Below, piece after piece: positions 35,801 to 47,800 of a stretch of DNA of 64,000 bases. Numbering within the stretch: position 1 is the first letter of the stretch; each line of letters opens with the position of its first letter. A program made the position numbers. The stretch comes from Syntrophorhabdaceae bacterium (GTDB taxonomy: Bacteria > Desulfobacterota > Syntrophorhabdia > Syntrophorhabdales > Syntrophorhabdaceae): NCBI GenBank assembly GCA_963665295.1, contig OY762209.1, positions 1,888,001-1,952,000 of the forward strand, given 5' to 3'.

Positions 35801-38800
35801 AAATACCGCTTCAACTGCCTGAGCCAGAGGATGTAGATCACATTCATCTGTTTCTGCCCCGCATAAATTTCCGCTGGACCCTCATGCGCTCCAGGGGGTT
35901 TGCCTCTTCGGCCCTGAGGCCGCGACCGGTGAGGGCGATAAAGGCGTCCTCCAGGGAGCTAGTGCCTGTCTTTTCCTTCAATTCACCGGGGGTCCCGTCG
36001 GCAACGATCCGTCCCCGGTCTATGATGGCGATGCGGTTGGCCGCTCTTTCCGCTTCCTCCATGTAATGGGTGGTAAAAAAAACGGTTACCCCCTCGGACC
36101 GGTTGAGTTCCTTGATGTGGCCCCAGATGAGGTTCCGCGTCTGGGGATCGAGGCCAAGAGTGGGTTCGTCAAGAAAGAGGACTATGGGATGGTGAAGGAG
36201 GCCTCTCGCAATTTCGAGCCTCCGCTTCATTCCACCGGAAAAGGTCTTGACGAAGTCGTCTTTCCGGTCCCACAGTTCCACAATGGAAAGGAGCTCCCTT
36301 ATCCTCGGTTTCCTTATCTCTTTCGGGACGTTATAGAGTATGCCATGGTACTCCATGTTCTCGTAGGCGGTAAGTTCTTCATCGAGGCTCGGGTCCTGAA
36401 ACACGATTCCGAAGGTCCGGCGTACCTTGTGGGGAGATGTGGCAGGATCATGGCCGTTCATGGAAATCCTCCCGCTTGTGGGGCGAAGAAGGGTGGTGAG
36501 CATCTTGATGGTCGTCGACTTTCCCGCCCCGTTCGGGCCGAGAAAGGCGAAAATCTCCCCTGCCTCGATGGAAAAGGTCAGGTGGTCGACGGCCACGAAG
36601 TCGTCAAACATCTTGGTGAGGTCGTTTACGCTGATAATATGCTTCTTGTCTGCTTCCGTCATCCGTCCTGCCCTCGATCGGTCAATCTTGCTTCATCCGG
36701 TCCGGTACGCCTTTACAACACATACTTCGATTTAAGCTCCTCCACGTGGTGGACGAACTTCCGGATGGCGAGGTCGTATCTCCTTGCCTTCAAAAAGAGC
36801 ATGGACACGTTAAGGGAAAGGTCCTCATCCAGGGGTATGACCTTGAGGTGCTTGAGGTCGTCGGCCGATACGGCCCTCTTGATGAGGATCGACTTGCCCT
36901 TGCCCTGAGATACCCACTCCTTTATGAATTCCGTGCTCTTCATGTCGATGAGGACGGAAGGCTTTATCTTCATCGACTCGAAGGCGGCAAGTACCGCATG
37001 CCTCGTGGCGGACCCTTTCTCCCGTACGATCAGAGGACGTCCCTCCATCTCCCGTAAGGATATGGACGTCCTTATGGAGAAGGGATGGTTGGTGGGCACT
37101 ATGGCCACCAGTTCCTCTTTCACGAGAGGGAATACGGAGAGGTTCTTCGAGGTCTTTTCCGCAGCAGCGATTACCACATCGTTCTTCATGGCAAGGACCG
37201 AATCCACAAGGTCATGGGAGGTCCCCATGTCGAGGGCGATGGAGATATCAGGGTTGTCCTTCTGAAAGGTGCCGAGGATAAAGGGGAGCATGACCTTCGA
37301 ATATATGGGGCTCGTGGCGAGCCTCAAAGAGGGGACGGATTCCTGCTTTATGCCCCTTATGGTATTCTCGAGGCCCCTTGCCATGGTCTCTATCTTCTCC
37401 GCATACCTGAAGACCGCCTTTCCCTCCTTGGTGAGTCTGCACGCGCCCTTTTCCCGTGTAAGGAGCCTGCTCCCCGTCTGGGCCTCCAGTTGGGCCACAT
37501 GGTTCGACACGCCCGGCTGGGTCATGAAAAGCAGGTCCGCAGCCTTGGAAAAGCTGTTCAGTTTTACGACTTCGTAGAACACGATCAAGGAGTTTAGTGA
37601 GTAGGAGAACATAATGTTTTCTTATTAAGATTAAACGGAAAATCATGGCGGCCTGTCAAGGCATTATCTGCCCCCGCACGGGGCTTATGTATTTAAAAGA
37701 GGACATAACCAATCATTATAGTAAGTTAAATATCACTATGTTGCAAAATAGTACAATGACGGTAAAGCCCATAAATTGAGGAAGAAGCACCGGTATAGTT
37801 TTTTCTTATGGAGCATAAGAAGAACTAAATTGACACCCCCCGGGATCGGAGATTTACTAGATGCATGAACACCGGCTCAGGTGAAAAGGGAAAATCCGAT
37901 ACCTGCAAAATACTACAAACCGACGATACTGTCAATAATTCCGCCAAAGAGACGGAACAACGAGGACCGGTAAATTGTGCAGATAACACCAAACTACGCA
38001 AAGGGAGGTATGTATGGATTTAAGGGACTACGTGTCATTATGCGAGAAGGTAGGTCAATTAAAAAGAGTGAAAGCCGAAGTTGACTGGAATCTTGAAATT
38101 TCCCATATCGCGAAGGTCGTGGAGGAGAAATCGGGTCCGGCCCTGCTTTTCGAAAAGGTGAAGGGATATAGCAGCCCGGTGCTCACGGGCGCCTTCGGCA
38201 CCACCGAGAGACTGGCGATGATCCTCGGACAGAAGCCGGACATGTCCATGGTTCAGCTCACCAGGGAGTGGGTGAACCTCTCAGTCAAAGGGGTGATCCC
38301 CGCAAAAGAACAGAAAGACGGTCCCATCTTCGAGAATATCGTTGACGGAAACAAAGTGGACACCTTCGCCTTTCCCTCACCGAAGTTCTACGAACTGGAC
38401 GGCGGACGCTATTTCGGCACCGCGGTGTTCATGGTCATTCAGGACCCGGAGACAGGCGACGTGAACCTCGGCACATACCGGATGGGCATCCTTGACGAAA
38501 AGACCGTGGGCGTTCAGATCCTCAAGGGAAAGAAAGCCGACAGGATCATGAAGAAATACGGGAAGGCCGGCAAGAAAATGCCCGCATGCGCCATCATCGG
38601 CGGTGACCCCCTGCACATCTTTGCGAGCGCCGCCACGGTAACGGGCGCGAAGAGCGGATATGATGTGGTAGGCACCTTGAGGGGCGCGCCGGTGGAAACG
38701 GTAAAATCCCAGATTCACGGGCTTCCCATTCCCGCAGGTGCGGAGATTGTGCTGGAAGGTGAGATCGATCCGAGCCAGCTCAGAAACGAAGGGCCCTTCG

Positions 38801-44800: not shown

Positions 44801-47800
44801 TTTATGGAGAATCAAGAGACAGCCAGCAAGATCGGCATCGGCCCTGAAGGCAGAATGGGCGGATTTATTCAGTTCATCGTAATTGCGGCCCTCGGCACCA
44901 TGGTATTCGTATATGGCGTATCACCGGAGACGATCGTCTTCAAGTTCCTTCCGGGAACGCTCATCATGCTTATCGTGATGGGACAACTCGCTCTTCTGGG
45001 GGACAACTGGCCGCTCGCACCTCCCGGGGGAAGCTGGGCGCCCGGAAAATCGCGTCTGGCAGCGGGCCTGGGGATGACGCTCCTCTGGGCTGTTCTTACT
45101 ACGGCCATGCTTCTCTTCATGATGTACGTCGCGCCGAAATGGGATATGGGACCTCTCTATCTCTGGTTCGGGGCCATAGGCTTCTGGGCCACCCTTTTAT
45201 ACGGGATAAACTGGAACGGCTGGCCCCTTAAGGGAAGGCTGCCCCCGTGGGGTGTGGCAACAGGGGGGTTCGTGATTATCATGATCGTCGCCATGCTGAT
45301 CTGGAATTTCCTCACCAACCTTGACGGGACGCCCTTTGAGAATACGCCCATCAACCACAAGGGGCCCTTTAATGTGAACTGGCTCACGGGATACATAGTG
45401 TGGTCCATTGCGTGGTTTTTCGTATTCAGCCCGGTCTTCAACACCCAGGGGTTCCCCTTCACCAGATGGCGCCATCCGCTGGGGGCGCTGGGTCAGACCA
45501 TACTTGCCCACATCCTCGGGCTCATATGCTGGAACGGGAGTCTGGCCCTCGGGATGAGCCCGTCCTTTTCTTTCGGGGCAGTGGCATCGTCTATTATCTT
45601 CTGTTCCCTGGTCTATTCATGGCATTTCCAGTTCTGGGGAATATCGAAGCTGACCAACGGCACAAGGGCAATTGCGGCCATGGTCACCATATTCGTGATA
45701 GTCGCCGTCTGGATCGGCATATGCAACGTGGTGCTCAAGGCCGCGGCCAACAGCATTGCGGCCCTGAAGCTCCCCGCGGACATCAACATTCTTATCATCT
45801 ACCTTAACCTGTGCATCGTGGGACCCGCGTTGATTGCCCATAACGCATTCTGGCTGAGGTGGCCCCTCACGCTGCCCGCGCCTCCGGGAACACCGCCTCC
45901 GGAACAGAGCGCCTGAGAGAAGAGAGATAATGAGGGGGCATAGCCGATGAACGCGAACGATTGGGGTAAAGAGAGCCGGCCGGTCCGCTCCCGCACCATG
46001 TCGGAAAGCCGGGGGGACCTTGAGATTACGGCAGTGGTCTACGAGCTCGACACTGATTGCCTTGTCATACTCTACGGAGGGACGAGGCCCCACATAGGCG
46101 CGGTGGGCATGGGGCAGGCAAGGCCGAGTCTCAAAAACCCGGAAGAGGCCTCTGCTACGAGCTCGGTCTTCACCTACGTGGGCCACAAGGAAGACATGGT
46201 GGCAAAGGCGGTGTCAGAGGACCTCACCCGCAGAACGGGAAGGAACACGGTCGTCGTGGCCGGCATCCATTGGGATGATTTGTCCGAGGCTGGCATAAAC
46301 CATATCAGGAGTGCGTGCCATGCCCTGACGGACCGGATAGTGAGCGAACTTTCTGCTTAAGGCAGTACATTGAACCTCCTTGCGATGCCCTCCTGCCCCC
46401 GCCATATACGGGGGCAGGAGGGCAGGACAAGACCGGCAACCCGTCGCGGCGGGGCGCGATAGGGGCCCACTTTTTGACAACTGCCGCTTGTTGTGCTAAA
46501 CCAATACCTATGAAAGTCGAATACAACGGCAAAATCCACGAATTCGAAAAGGCAACGACCGTCCGCAGGCTCCTTGAGCAGATGTCCCTCAATAGGGAAT
46601 CCCATCTCGTGGTGGTAAACAACAAGCTCGTTACCGAAGATTCCCGGCTGGAGAGGGATGACGAGGTAAAATTGATAAGGGTCATTTCCGGCGGATGAAA
46701 TGCAGGGTCTGCGGCGAGGCCGCAACCATCAGCCTGAAAGCGTACAACACCGCCTTATGCGCTCGTGACTTCAACGCCTTCCTGGAAAAAAGGGTCAACA
46801 CCACCATCGAGAAGTACCATCTCATCGAGGAAGGGGATAAACCCATTGTCGCCATATCGGGCGGAAAGGACAGCCTTTCCCTCTGGTACATAATGAACAA
46901 GCTTGGCTATCCGGCCGACGGGATTTACATCGACCTCGGCATCGAGGACTATTCCGGGCCCTCCCTGGGCAAGATCAGGACCGTGGCGGACACCTTGAAG
47001 AGAAAGGTCTACGTTTTTCCTTTCCGGCAGGTTTTCAATAAAGGGATCGAGGAGTTGGCGAGGGTGATCAGACGCCCCCCGTGCTCCGCGTGCGGCATGA
47101 TAAAACGGTACATCATGAACAGGGTGTGCATGGACAAGGGCTACAATACCCTTGTAACGGGCCACAACCTCGATGATGAGGCCGCGGCCCTTTTCGGAAA
47201 TGTCCTTTACTGGAAGGACGAGTACCTCTGGAAAAAGAATGTGGTCCTCGAAGGGACGGAAGGCCACCTCTCGAAAAAGGTAAAGCCCCTGTTCCTCTGC
47301 TCGGAGCGGGAGATGGCCGCCTATGCCATTATCAACAACATCGATTATATCTATGAGGAATGCCCTTTCTCGGTGAACGCCAAGTCTCTTACCTACAAGG
47401 CCATGCTGAACAAGCTCGAAGAGAAGTCGCCGGGCACAAAGCTCCAGTTCATAAAGGGTTACCTGAAGCAAGTGAAGGAAGGGGAGAGGAAGGACGGCGG
47501 CTACTGCGAGACGTGTGGATACCCCGGTTACGGGGGCGTGTGCAACTTCTGCAGGATGCTCGAAAGGTTTCATATAGACCCCAACATATCATTTGAGGAG
47601 TATGGCTCGTGTGACCTTGACACCCCGCAAGAAGTAGTGACATAATCTCACATGAGTATGATAGACAGCTTCTCTCAGCTAATTTTCAACGTATATGAAG
47701 CATTCACCGTCGCCTTGTTCGTGAGGGAACGGGAAAACCTGAGGTGTATCTCTTCCGTCACCTTTTCCACGAGTTTCGACAGGTCGAGGACGCTCCCCGT

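What a model noticed while it worked through the whole genome (the two positions that open the first line are those of the whole stretch)
38014..46360. Archaeal-type CTP-dependent riboflavin kinase wired into the phenylphosphate carboxylase / UbiX operon
The phenol-degradation operon ppcB-ppcD-ppcD-ppcA-ppcC-ubiD-ubiX ends with a 125-aa homologue of the archaeal CTP-dependent riboflavin kinase RibK (g01754), although the genome also has the normal bacterial RibF. I read it as a dedicated FMN feeder for the flavin prenyltransferase UbiX, a private line riboflavin -> FMN -> prFMN -> UbiD-type carboxylases. If true, prFMN supply in anaerobic aromatic degraders is insulated from the cell's flavin pool, and co-expressing this small kinase with UbiX would be a simple way to raise prFMN loading of UbiD enzymes.
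Evidence so far: Gene order g01747-g01756, + strand, gaps 2-160 nt. g01754: Pfam CTP-dep_RFKase over the cut, best Swiss-Prot hit Methanothermobacter riboflavin kinase; keeps FQPYRGTLNL. Family in 1279 of 189784 bacterial against 6603 of 10118 archaeal genomes. CTP-dep_RFKase within 2 genes of Flavoprotein (UbiX family): 28 of 95 Syntrophorhabdales (34 carry the family) and 298 genomes overall; near UbiD 29 of 95 and 221-223 overall. RibF is g03627. Two other UbiX copies (g00104, g04526) lack such a neighbour.
(Added by a program. Inside this text positions count along the whole contig: contig position 1,888,001 is position 1 of the stretch shown here. "Call 12" and the like, gene names such as g00115 and contig names such as C1 are that model's own, and its searches are not shown. 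The text may have been shortened before it was handed on; [...] marks where a part breaks off. The agent that wrote the report below was given it as the finding of a first reader that could run no searches.)

Follow-up and report, generated by a model that had tools for sequence, protein, structure and literature searches.

The report
Divergent riboflavin-kinase paralogue wired to UbiX
The last gene of this anaerobic phenol-carboxylation operon is a small kinase from an unstudied side branch of the archaeal riboflavin kinase family that sits beside the prenylated-flavin enzymes UbiX and UbiD in many bacteria, so it probably supplies FMN for that cofactor.

Summary
The + strand carries ppcB-ppcD-ppcD-ppcA-ppcC-ubiD-ubiX, then a 125-aa PF01982 (DUF120) gene 24 nt after ubiX. 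The genome also has one bifunctional RibF and two other UbiX copies.

The gene is not an ordinary archaeal RibK. It scores 64-67 bits against NCBIfam RibK models whose cut-offs are 168 and 279. It lies outside the clade of canonical enzymes. It lacks a tyrosine reported as absolutely conserved, having Trp22-Val23 instead ("W-type").

W-type genes sat beside a housekeeping riboflavin kinase in all six genomes checked: RibF here, a canonical RbkR-like copy in 5 of 5 Bathyarchaeia.

In bacteria they cluster with UbiX/UbiD:
- 26 of 30 loci in the order;
- 13 of 20 elsewhere in the phylum;
- 8 of 11 bacterial loci from other phyla.

They also cluster or fuse with type-2 IPP isomerase, YhbP-like FMN binders, HAD and Nudix hydrolases, RibBA and an MFS transporter.

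The phosphotransfer core and five of six flavin contacts are kept. Best reading (0.55): a client-coupled riboflavin kinase co-induced to feed FMN into prFMN synthesis. A prenol-to-DMAP kinase is not excluded. Nothing supports a physically insulated pool. My literature searches found no description.

The parts
36713..37612 (-). Divergent LysR-type regulator upstream of the operon
   Evidence: PF03466 and PF00126. Its role for this operon is inferred from position only.
38014..39429 (+). ppcB, phenylphosphate carboxylase beta subunit (UbiD family)
   Evidence: TIGR02724, 664.6 bits, cut-off 469.
39504..40061 (+). ppcD-like HAD/KdsC-type subunit, copy 1
   Evidence: TIGR02726, 113 bits, below the cut-off of 282; PF08282.
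40072..40602 (+). ppcD-like HAD/KdsC-type subunit, copy 2
   Evidence: TIGR02726, 115 bits, below the cut-off; PF08282.
40618..42063 (+). ppcA, phenylphosphate carboxylase alpha subunit (UbiD family)
   Evidence: TIGR02723, 680.5 bits, cut-off 565.
42073..42327 (+). ppcC, gamma subunit
   Evidence: PF09662, 55.6 bits.
42329..43666 (+). Third UbiD-family decarboxylase, called 'PpcX' in the literature
   Evidence: TIGR00148, 261 bits, and no specific equivalog. PMC5946492 names the UbiD-like gene downstream of pps-ppc PpcX (passages).
43663..44244 (+). UbiX flavin prenyltransferase ('PpcY')
   Evidence: NF004685, 256 bits; TIGR00421, 247 bits.
44269..44646 (+). W-type DUF120 kinase: a divergent paralogue of the CTP-dependent riboflavin kinase and the focus of the finding
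   Evidence: PF01982, 90.4 bits. NF040694, 64 bits, and NF010762, 67 bits, both far below their cut-offs. AF2 model pLDDT 93, TM 0.87 to 2VBU. Residue table.
44647..44760 (+). Stable hairpin region after the kinase stop codon; possible 3' end of the operon
   Evidence: MFE -46.5 kcal/mol, z -3.7 against shuffles. There is no canonical T tract.
44804..45916 (+). Membrane protein of no known family; whether it belongs to the system is uncertain
   Evidence: No Pfam or NCBIfam hit. A relative lies near the ppc operon in 2 of 19 extended loci.
45947..46360 (+). PAC_bac (proteasome-assembly-chaperone-like) protein that recurs near ppc operons
   Evidence: PF21758, 112 bits. Found in 8 of 19 extended loci of the order.

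Best explanation
The 125-aa gene encodes a soluble small-molecule kinase. It belongs to a distinct 'W-type' branch of the DUF120 / CTP-dependent riboflavin kinase fold.

It most likely phosphorylates riboflavin to FMN, probably with CTP. It is transcribed as the last gene of the ppc-ubiD-ubiX operon. Induction of three UbiD-family proteins and UbiX would then bring an extra FMN-only source with it, unlike the bifunctional RibF.

Shown:
- gene order, family and fold;
- retention of the phosphotransfer core;
- recurrent linkage to UbiX/UbiD and other FMN users;
- coexistence with a housekeeping kinase.

Inferred:
- the substrate (riboflavin) and the nucleotide (CTP);
- co-transcription;
- that the FMN made goes to UbiX.

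No physical channelling is claimed.
For: Family and fold:
- PF01982, 90 bits.
- AF2 model pLDDT 93, matching MJ0056 2VBU at TM 0.87 and 2VBV (CDP+FMN complex) at TM 0.84.

Catalytic core. Residue roles are from PMC5397151 and bioRxiv 2021.04.15.440061 (passages):
- G10 and G12 of the glycine loop, G38-T-L-N41, the proposed base E100, and L107-K108 of the nucleobase loop are all kept.
- Five of the six FMN-contacting positions are kept: F17, F68, P89, Y94, E100.

Context:
- ubiD-ubiX-DUF120 in 26 of 30 loci of the order.
- The whole ppcB-to-kinase order in 17 of 19 extended loci; the other two are cut by contig ends.
- 29 of 31 genomes with ppcA over the cut-off carry the family, against 10 of 65 without.
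- Elsewhere in the phylum, 13 of 20 standalone loci have UbiX and/or UbiD within 5 kb. Seven of these have the whole ppc operon, although the kinase is only 32-36% identical.
- 8 of 11 bacterial loci from other phyla have ubiX adjacent.
- UbiX lies within 15 kb on the same contig in 28 of 42 DUF120-bearing genomes of the phylum sample.
- UbiX/UbiD-linked members are scattered over at least 8 places of the family tree.

Flavin-specific links:
- RibBA-UbiD-DUF120 gene row in L075.
- YhbP/PNPOx-like FMN binders in the cassette in L069, L130 and L142, and fused in P0101.
- IDI-2, an FMN-dependent enzyme, adjacent in 6 loci and fused in P0080, P0186 and P0187.
- Fusion to an MFS transporter (P0204), and an MFS gene upstream in L094.
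- A flavodoxin and an ECF S-component beside single Bathyarchaeia copies.

Against the DMAP rival: 0 of 5 Bathyarchaeia genomes with a W-type gene have a UbiX over the cut-off.
Against: - The gene fails both NCBIfam RibK models (64 vs 168 bits; 67 vs 279 bits).
- It falls outside the canonical clade, which is a single clade with SH-aLRT 97.
- The tyrosine called absolutely conserved and FMN-contacting (taRbkR Tyr115) is Val23 here.
- Other residues invariant in 40-44 of 44 canonical sequences are all replaced: Y16, R66, G69, R91, T/S92, H93. The replacements are mostly hydrophobic: W22, C69, V91, P92. The acceptor pocket is therefore remodelled.
- In all six genomes checked, the W-type gene coexists with a housekeeping riboflavin kinase: RibF here, and a canonical long copy in 5 of 5 Bathyarchaeia. 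It is never shown to be needed as a riboflavin kinase.
- IDI-2, Nudix and HAD partners fit a prenyl-phosphate reading equally well.
- No member of this branch has been assayed, as far as my searches show.
- No FMN riboswitch lies in the window.
Confidence: 0.55

Rival explanations
1. The W-type kinase phosphorylates dimethylallyl alcohol (prenol), or isoprenol, to give DMAP. DMAP is the other substrate of UbiX. The kinase would then be the dedicated DMAP source of the prFMN pathway.
For: - The acceptor pocket is remodelled towards hydrophobic residues. Two arginines, a Thr, a His and two Tyr that are invariant in canonical enzymes are lost.
- There is recurrent clustering and fusion with IDI-2, which makes DMAPP: 6 loci and 3 fusion proteins.
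- There are fusions to Nudix and HAD hydrolases. In E. coli, Nudix hydrolases make DMAP from DMAPP, and ThiM makes it from prenol (PMC12359138, passages).
- The source of DMAP in anaerobes is not known to me (recalled).
Against: - Five of six flavin contacts, including three aromatic residues, are kept, and an invariant Trp is gained.
- The links to RibBA, YhbP/PNPOx-like proteins, flavodoxin, an ECF S-component and an MFS transporter fit a vitamin, not a C5 alcohol.
- 0 of 5 Bathyarchaeia genomes with a W-type gene have a recognisable UbiX, the only known user of DMAP.
- Free prenol is not a known regular metabolite of bacteria that use the MEP pathway (recalled).
Confidence: 0.17
2. The protein acts on, or merely binds, another flavin-like molecule. 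Candidates are a reduced or modified flavin, a deazaflavin, or prFMN itself as a carrier or maturation helper for UbiD enzymes. It would not feed UbiX with FMN.
For: - It is a distinct paralogue kept next to a canonical kinase in 5 of 5 Bathyarchaeia genomes.
- Four of those five have a UbiD-family gene but no UbiX over the cut-off.
- A CofE-like gene lies two genes away in many Bathyarchaeia loci.
- Cys69 is invariant in 44 of 44 UbiX/UbiD-linked members.
- The glycine loop is degenerate in many W-type members.
Against: - The proposed catalytic base E100 and the GTLN phosphate loop are invariant in all 140 aligned sequences. That argues for a working kinase rather than a binding protein.
- No direct evidence points to any alternative substrate.
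Confidence: 0.15
3. It is an ordinary redundant riboflavin kinase with no special tie to prFMN. The adjacency would only reflect inheritance and lateral transfer of the whole ppc gene block.
For: - Within the order the gene travels with the ppc operon as one block.
- Kin are not independent observations.
Against: - Adjacency to UbiX or UbiD also occurs without ppc genes, and in other arrangements: kinase-ubiX-IDI-2-YhbP in L069, L130, L142; RibBA-UbiD-kinase in L075; MFS-kinase-ubiX in L094.
- It occurs in several phyla, with kinases only about 31-40% identical.
- Linked members sit in at least 8 separate places of the tree.
Confidence: 0.08

Closest known systems
Archaeal CTP-dependent riboflavin kinase RibK (M. 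jannaschii MJ0056; PDB 2VBU, 2VBV) and the bifunctional regulator/kinase RbkR (T. acidophilum; 3CTA, 5TRD)
   Same: - Same Pfam family and the same cradle-loop barrel fold, TM 0.83-0.87.
- Glycine loop, GTLN phosphate loop, proposed base Glu and nucleobase loop are kept.
- Five of six FMN contacts are kept.
   Different: - About 26-29% identity.
- Far below the NCBIfam equivalog cut-offs.
- A separate clade.
- Trp22-Val23 in place of Gly-Tyr; loss of R66, G69, R91, T92, H93.
- No wHTH domain.
- It coexists with another riboflavin kinase rather than being the only one. For archaea, PMC5397151 reports that RibK and RbkR never co-occur.
- Its activity has not been tested.
Bacterial bifunctional RibF (FAD synthetase / ATP-dependent riboflavin kinase)
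   Same: Presumed same reaction, riboflavin to FMN. RibF is present in the same genome.
   Different: - Unrelated fold: TM about 0.4 to RFK modules.
- RibF goes on to make FAD, whereas the small kinase could only make FMN.
- RibF is not in the operon.
Client-coupled eukaryotic riboflavin kinases: human RFK with PNPOx (PMC10086132, listing and abstract only) and the plant HAD-type FMN hydrolase/riboflavin kinase fusion (recalled, not checked)
   Same: The idea is the same: a riboflavin kinase is paired with the protein that takes the FMN. W-type genes are fused or adjacent to PNPOx-like proteins, IDI-2, UbiX and HAD hydrolases.
   Different: - A different kinase fold.
- No physical contact is shown here.
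Known prFMN precursor supply in E. coli: Nudix hydrolases (NudJ, B, F, I) and ThiM making DMAP
   Same: Accessory enzymes that supply a UbiX substrate (PMC12359138, passages citing Wang et al. 2018).
   Different: - Those enzymes are unrelated folds and are not clustered with ubiX.
- They serve the prenyl branch, whereas this gene most likely serves the flavin branch.

Membership tests
Pfam PF01982 (CTP-dep_RFKase / DUF120) | Profile score over the gathering cut-off across the whole domain | tested here: met
   90.4 bits against a cut-off of 25. Residues 7-122 match profile positions 1-120 of 121.
Pfam PF01982 (CTP-dep_RFKase / DUF120) | Cradle-loop barrel fold of MJ0056 | tested here: met
   AF2 pLDDT 93. 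Foldseek: 2VBU TM 0.87, rmsd 2.2 A; 2VBV_A TM 0.84; 5TRD_A TM 0.83.
Pfam PF01982 (CTP-dep_RFKase / DUF120) | Phosphate-binding GTLN motif, glycine-rich loop and active-site Glu | tested here: met
   G38-T39-L40-N41 and E100 are invariant in all groups. The glycine loop is GVGES here, against GxGEG in canonical enzymes.
Canonical archaeal RibK/RbkR (EC 2.7.1.161; NCBIfam NF040694 and NF010762) | Score over the curated equivalog cut-off | tested here: not met
   NF040694: 64.4 bits against 168. NF010762: 66.9 bits against 279.
Canonical archaeal RibK/RbkR (EC 2.7.1.161; NCBIfam NF040694 and NF010762) | [quoted passage not shown] | tested here: not met
   The aligned residue is Val23, preceded by Trp22. 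It is Tyr in 44 of 44 canonical sequences, and Val, Ala, Phe or Ile in all 96 aligned W-type sequences.
Canonical archaeal RibK/RbkR (EC 2.7.1.161; NCBIfam NF040694 and NF010762) | Placement inside the clade of characterised enzymes | tested here: not met
   The 44 Tyr-type sequences form one clade (SH-aLRT 97). The window's protein lies outside it, in a 29-row clade with support 100. This is a quick tree on 135 columns with a midpoint root.
Canonical archaeal RibK/RbkR (EC 2.7.1.161; NCBIfam NF040694 and NF010762) | Being the genome's only riboflavin kinase | tested here: not met
   RibF is present in the same genome. In 5 of 5 Bathyarchaeia genomes the W-type copy accompanies a canonical long copy.
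Canonical archaeal RibK/RbkR (EC 2.7.1.161; NCBIfam NF040694 and NF010762) | CTP-dependent phosphorylation of riboflavin | not testable with these tools
   This needs an enzyme assay. The nucleobase loop L107-K108...L111 is conservatively kept.
Phenylphosphate carboxylase operon (ppcBCAD with UbiD-like PpcX and UbiX-like PpcY) | Alpha and beta subunits over the equivalog cut-offs, gamma subunit present, UbiD/UbiX pair downstream | tested here: met
   TIGR02723 680 bits, TIGR02724 665 bits, PF09662, TIGR00148, TIGR00421. The two delta-like genes score below the TIGR02726 cut-off.

The most novel reading that the evidence does not exclude
W-type DUF120 is not a riboflavin kinase. It would be the missing dedicated kinase of prenylated-flavin biosynthesis, for example a CTP-dependent prenol kinase making DMAP.

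Together with UbiX, IDI-2 and a YhbP-like flavoprotein it would form a self-contained four-gene 'prFMN cassette'.

In Bathyarchaeia, which have a UbiD-family gene but no recognisable UbiX, it could belong to an alternative route to the cofactor.
Probability: 0.17. Interest if true: 0.85.

Novelty: new variant of a known kind. Interest (0 to 1): 0.6.

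Why it matters
prFMN supply is a practical limit when UbiD-type (de)carboxylases are expressed for biocatalysis. How anaerobes provision UbiX is also poorly known.

This analysis defines a whole uncharacterised subfamily rather than a single gene. The subfamily is genomically tied to UbiX/UbiD in several bacterial phyla. It also points to a recurrent cassette: kinase, UbiX, type-2 IPP isomerase and a YhbP-like protein.

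If the enzyme makes FMN, it is a small, FMN-only kinase that could be co-expressed with UbiX. If it makes DMAP, it would fill an open step of the pathway.

Either way, it warns against transferring the name 'CTP-dependent riboflavin kinase' to these bacterial genes without an assay.

Tried and rejected
- **Complex prediction of UbiX (alignment A4) with the kinase (alignment A5).** Score 0.00, verdict 'no answer'. This is no evidence either way.
- **RNA evidence.** No RNA holder was listed for window 42329-46360, only five DNA-type runs.
- **FMN riboswitch.** The Rfam gathering scan of the whole window found only a tRNA.
- **Promoter and terminator scan.** Counts were at shuffle level.
- **Search for UbiX or UbiD fusions:**
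  - none among 41 multidomain representatives scanned;
  - none among 73 long relatives listed with Pfam domains;
  - the single-sequence 'longer' search found nothing.
- **The search for related loci.** It rejected alignments A1 and A2 for lack of a conserved stretch. With A3 it returned mostly archaeal loci, because the first sequence turned out to be a Bathyarchaeia protein.
- **Paper searches with no hit:**
  - 'riboflavin kinase' + UbiX + prFMN;
  - DUF120 + UbiD;
  - UbiX + 'dimethylallyl monophosphate' + prenol + kinase;
  - 'phenylphosphate carboxylase' + 'riboflavin kinase';
  - UbiX + RibK.

  The DUF120 / CTP-dependent listing showed only archaeal work or unrelated papers.
- **PMC94709** is not held.
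- **Earlier findings of the scan.** Nothing near this place.
- **ESM Atlas.** It only repeated the family for the kinase. It gave no usable lead for the membrane protein.
- **Pocket geometry.** I could not examine it, because model coordinates and PDB ligands are not available to scripts.

Full report
**1. What is there**

On the + strand of the window lie nine genes in a row:
- ppcB (38014-39429)
- two ppcD-like HAD genes (39504-40061, 40072-40602)
- ppcA (40618-42063)
- ppcC (42073-42327)
- a third, generic UbiD-family gene (42329-43666)
- UbiX (43663-44244)
- after a 24-nt purine-rich spacer, a 125-aa gene (44269-44646) that matches Pfam PF01982 (CTP-dep_RFKase/DUF120) at 90.4 bits over the whole domain.

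Spacings run from a 4-nt overlap to 74 nt up to the kinase. After its stop codon lies a stable hairpin region (MFE -46.5 kcal/mol, z -3.7). It has no canonical T tract. The next gene, a membrane protein of no known family, starts 157 nt downstream.

The genome holds one PF01982 gene. It holds one bifunctional RibF, with FAD_syn plus Flavokinase domains. It holds three UbiX genes.

PMC5946492 (passages) already calls the UbiD-like and UbiX-like genes downstream of pps-ppc 'PpcX' and 'PpcY' in Syntrophorhabdus. That paper never mentions riboflavin.

**2. The gene is not an ordinary RibK**

It scores 64.4 bits against NCBIfam ribK_Meth (cut-off 168). It scores 66.9 bits against the wHTH/riboflavin kinase model (cut-off 279). 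The fold is nonetheless that of MJ0056: AF2 pLDDT 93, TM 0.87 to 2VBU and 0.84 to the CDP+FMN complex 2VBV.

I took residue roles from PMC5397151 (passages) and from bioRxiv 2021.04.15.440061 (passages). I mapped them with the HMMER alignments to 3CTA and 2P3M. I then built a position table from 140 domains.

Kept:
- G5, G10, G12
- P35
- G38-T-L-N41, the phosphate loop
- P89, Y94
- E100, the proposed catalytic base
- L107-K/R108, the nucleobase loop
- D115-G116

Of the six FMN-contacting positions, five are kept: F17, F68, P89, Y94 and E100.

[quoted passage not shown] Here it is Val23, preceded by Trp22. That tryptophan is present in 95 of the 96 aligned sequences of this branch.

Further residues are invariant or nearly so in the 44 canonical sequences and are replaced here:

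| Canonical | This branch |
|---|---|
| Y16 | variable |
| R66 | variable |
| T/S67 | G |
| G69 | C |
| R91 | V |
| T/S92 | P/E/A |
| H93 | N/G |

I call this branch W-type and the canonical one Y-type.

**3. W-type is a paralogous subfamily**

It is a quick IQ-TREE search on 135 columns with a midpoint root. The 44 Y-type sequences form one clade (SH-aLRT 97). Nearly all of them are long wHTH forms, and all but one come from archaea. Everything else is W-type: the bacterial sequences and a short Bathyarchaeia form.

In 5 of 5 Bathyarchaeia genomes examined there are two PF01982 genes:
- a long one (226-280 aa, 129-149 bits) with the canonical Tyr;
- a short one (123-140 aa, 106-118 bits) with Trp-Val/Ala/Phe.

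None of the five has a RibF-type kinase.

So in all six genomes I checked, W-type sits beside a housekeeping riboflavin kinase. PMC5397151 reports that RibK and RbkR never co-occur in archaea, so this second copy is a different thing. Of 183 representatives and close relatives, 163 carry the Trp and 10 carry the canonical Tyr.

**4. Gene context in bacteria**

*In the order.*
- 39 of 96 genomes carry the family.
- 26 of the 30 fetched loci read ubiD-ubiX-kinase.
- 17 of 19 extended loci show the whole order from ppcB to the kinase. The other two are cut by contig ends.
- ppcA is over its cut-off in 31 of 96 genomes, and 29 of those carry the kinase. The exceptions are G058, where the operon is at a contig edge, and G004.
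- Of the 65 genomes without ppcA over the cut-off, 10 carry the kinase. Several of these are truncated assemblies or HAD-fused forms.

*Elsewhere in the phylum.*
- 42 of 401 genomes carry the family.
- Of 20 standalone loci, 13 have UbiX and/or a UbiD-family gene within 5 kb.
- Seven of them have ppcD-ppcA-ppcC-ubiD-ubiX-kinase, although the kinase is only 32-36% identical to ours.
- I compared coordinates by hand. UbiX lies within 15 kb on the same contig in 28 of the 42 genomes. This includes HAD-fused forms: G136, G145, G448 and G073 within 1.5 kb, and eight more at 6-14 kb.
- UbiX is present in 39 of the 42 genomes, against 252 of the 359 genomes without the kinase. This is a modest enrichment, and relatives are not independent.

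*In other phyla.* The A3 scan sampled these, biased towards the GFxPYPGTLN motif. Of 11 bacterial loci, 8 have ubiX adjacent:
- two Chloroflexota;
- a Methylomirabilia;
- a Sulfuritalea with the complete ppc operon;
- a 'Deltaproteobacteria' MAG;
- two Binatia;
- a Thermodesulfobacteriota.

None of the 69 archaeal loci does.

On the tree, the UbiX/UbiD-linked state needs at least 8 changes even on well-supported branches. The link is therefore not a single inherited accident.

**5. Other partners**

Pfam and NCBIfam scans of neighbours and fusions show the following.
- A recurrent cassette of kinase, UbiX, type-2 IPP isomerase (TIGR02151, 351-417 bits against 281) and a YhbP/PNPOx-like protein, in L069, L130 and L142. 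L138 has the first three.
- IDI-2 also lies near the kinase in L072, and beside the Y-type copy in L060. It is fused to the kinase in P0080, P0186 and P0187.
- A gene row RibBA-UbiD-kinase in L075.
- HAD_2 phosphatases fused in most of the long forms listed, and adjacent in L061, L065, L066 and L071.
- Fusions to Nudix (P0182, P0206), a low-molecular-weight phosphatase, a glyoxalase-fold domain, MarR and an MFS transporter (P0204). An MFS gene also lies upstream of kinase-ubiX in L094.
- No fusion to UbiX or UbiD among 41 + 73 multidomain proteins.

In Bathyarchaeia the W-type gene follows a conserved unknown gene of 120-127 aa. Nearby are an ADP-forming acyl-CoA synthetase and a CofE-like gene. 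Single loci add a flavodoxin or an ECF S-component. There is no UbiX.

**6. How it most likely works**

The phosphotransfer machinery is intact, so I take the protein to be an active kinase.

The common denominator of its partners is FMN:
- UbiX uses FMN as a substrate.
- IDI-2 and YhbP-like proteins use it as a cofactor.
- RibBA makes its precursor.
- A transporter fusion fits uptake and trapping of a vitamin.

Together with five retained flavin contacts and the gained Trp, this makes riboflavin to FMN the best reading (0.55).

In this operon the gene would be co-induced with three UbiD-family proteins and UbiX. Each new UbiD active site consumes one FMN as prFMN. RibF passes FMN on to FAD, so a kinase that stops at FMN would raise the FMN share when demand jumps. 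Co-transcription, the substrate and the nucleotide are all inferred.

**7. Rivals**

The remodelled and more hydrophobic acceptor pocket fits a prenol-to-DMAP kinase (0.17). So do the partners IDI-2, Nudix and HAD, which handle DMAPP and DMAP in E. coli according to PMC12359138 (passages).

Against it:
- the retained aromatic flavin contacts;
- the flavin-specific neighbours;
- the five Bathyarchaeia genomes, which carry W-type genes but no UbiX over the cut-off by three searches. UbiX is the only known user of DMAP.

Four of those five genomes do have a UbiD-family gene. That is itself unexplained. It keeps open a role with another flavin species or in cofactor handling (0.15).

A purely redundant kinase carried along with the ppc block (0.08) is hard to square with the other arrangements and phyla.

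I found nothing that bears on it, so it stays a hypothesis.

**8. Novelty**

Five targeted full-text searches found no paper linking this family with UbiX, UbiD, prFMN or phenylphosphate carboxylase. The library lacks most subscription journals, so this is not proof of absence. In the papers I read, the characterised enzymes (M. jannaschii, M. maripaludis, T. acidophilum) are all archaeal. The two I could align (MJ0056, taRbkR) carry the canonical Tyr.

I rate this a new variant of a known kind: an uncharacterised paralogous subfamily of a known kinase fold, with a specific and recurrent tie to the prenylated-flavin system.

Noticed in passing
L095, L078, L093, L103, L101 genomes (handles G482-G486): Four of five Bathyarchaeia genomes have a UbiD-family gene of 433-468 aa. 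One of them is a 2.2-Mb record titled as a chromosome. None of the five has a UbiX over the TIGR00421 cut-off or any match to my UbiX profile. Only two have any PF02441 protein (81-82 bits, 194-197 aa). It is unclear who makes prFMN there.
   Followed up: partly
L095:4551-4919 (+) and equivalents in about 15 Bathyarchaeia loci: A conserved gene of 120-127 aa lies directly upstream of the W-type kinase and in the same direction. It has no Pfam or PDB match (P0184).
   Followed up: partly
window 45947-46360 (+): A PAC_bac (PF21758, proteasome-assembly-chaperone-like) gene lies here. Relatives lie within a few kb of the ppc operon in 8 of 19 extended loci of the order, mostly about 1 kb upstream of ppcB. 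It may be an assembly or maturation helper of the carboxylase.
   Followed up: partly
window 44804-45916 (+): A 370-aa membrane protein with no Pfam or NCBIfam family lies right after the kinase. Relatives (73-76% identical) lie near the ppc operon in two genomes of another family in the order. It could be a transporter, but the substrate is unknown.
   Followed up: partly
window 46504-47645 (+): A ThiS/SAMP2-like small protein ending in GG is followed, with overlap, by a TtuA-type tRNA 2-thiolation enzyme (NF049949, 288 bits, below its cut-off of 450). This is an archaeal-style sulfur-carrier pair in a bacterium.
   Followed up: no
L069, L130, L138, L142: A four-gene cassette of W-type kinase, UbiX, type-2 IPP isomerase and a YhbP/PNPOx-like protein occurs in Binatia and related MAGs (no YhbP-like gene was found in the shorter L138). 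XdhC/CoxI-type maturation genes lie next to it in L069 and L130. It looks like a self-contained prFMN supply module.
   Followed up: partly
L050 (G091:C71) and rows for G091: In one genome the ppcB, ppcD, ppcA and ubiX hits are broken into pieces, and the ppcA frame has several in-frame stops. The kinase gene is intact. This is either a decaying operon or a poor assembly.
   Followed up: no
L057 (G317) and L082 (Limnocylindrales MAG): Two contigs binned as bacterial carry the exact Bathyarchaeia arrangement: unknown small gene, W-type kinase, acyl-CoA synthetase, CofE-like gene. This suggests block transfer or a mis-binned archaeal contig.
   Followed up: no
L060 (G128:C284): A bacterial genome of the phylum carries a canonical Tyr-type DUF120 next to a type-2 IPP isomerase. 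The IDI-2 link is therefore not limited to the W-type branch.
   Followed up: no
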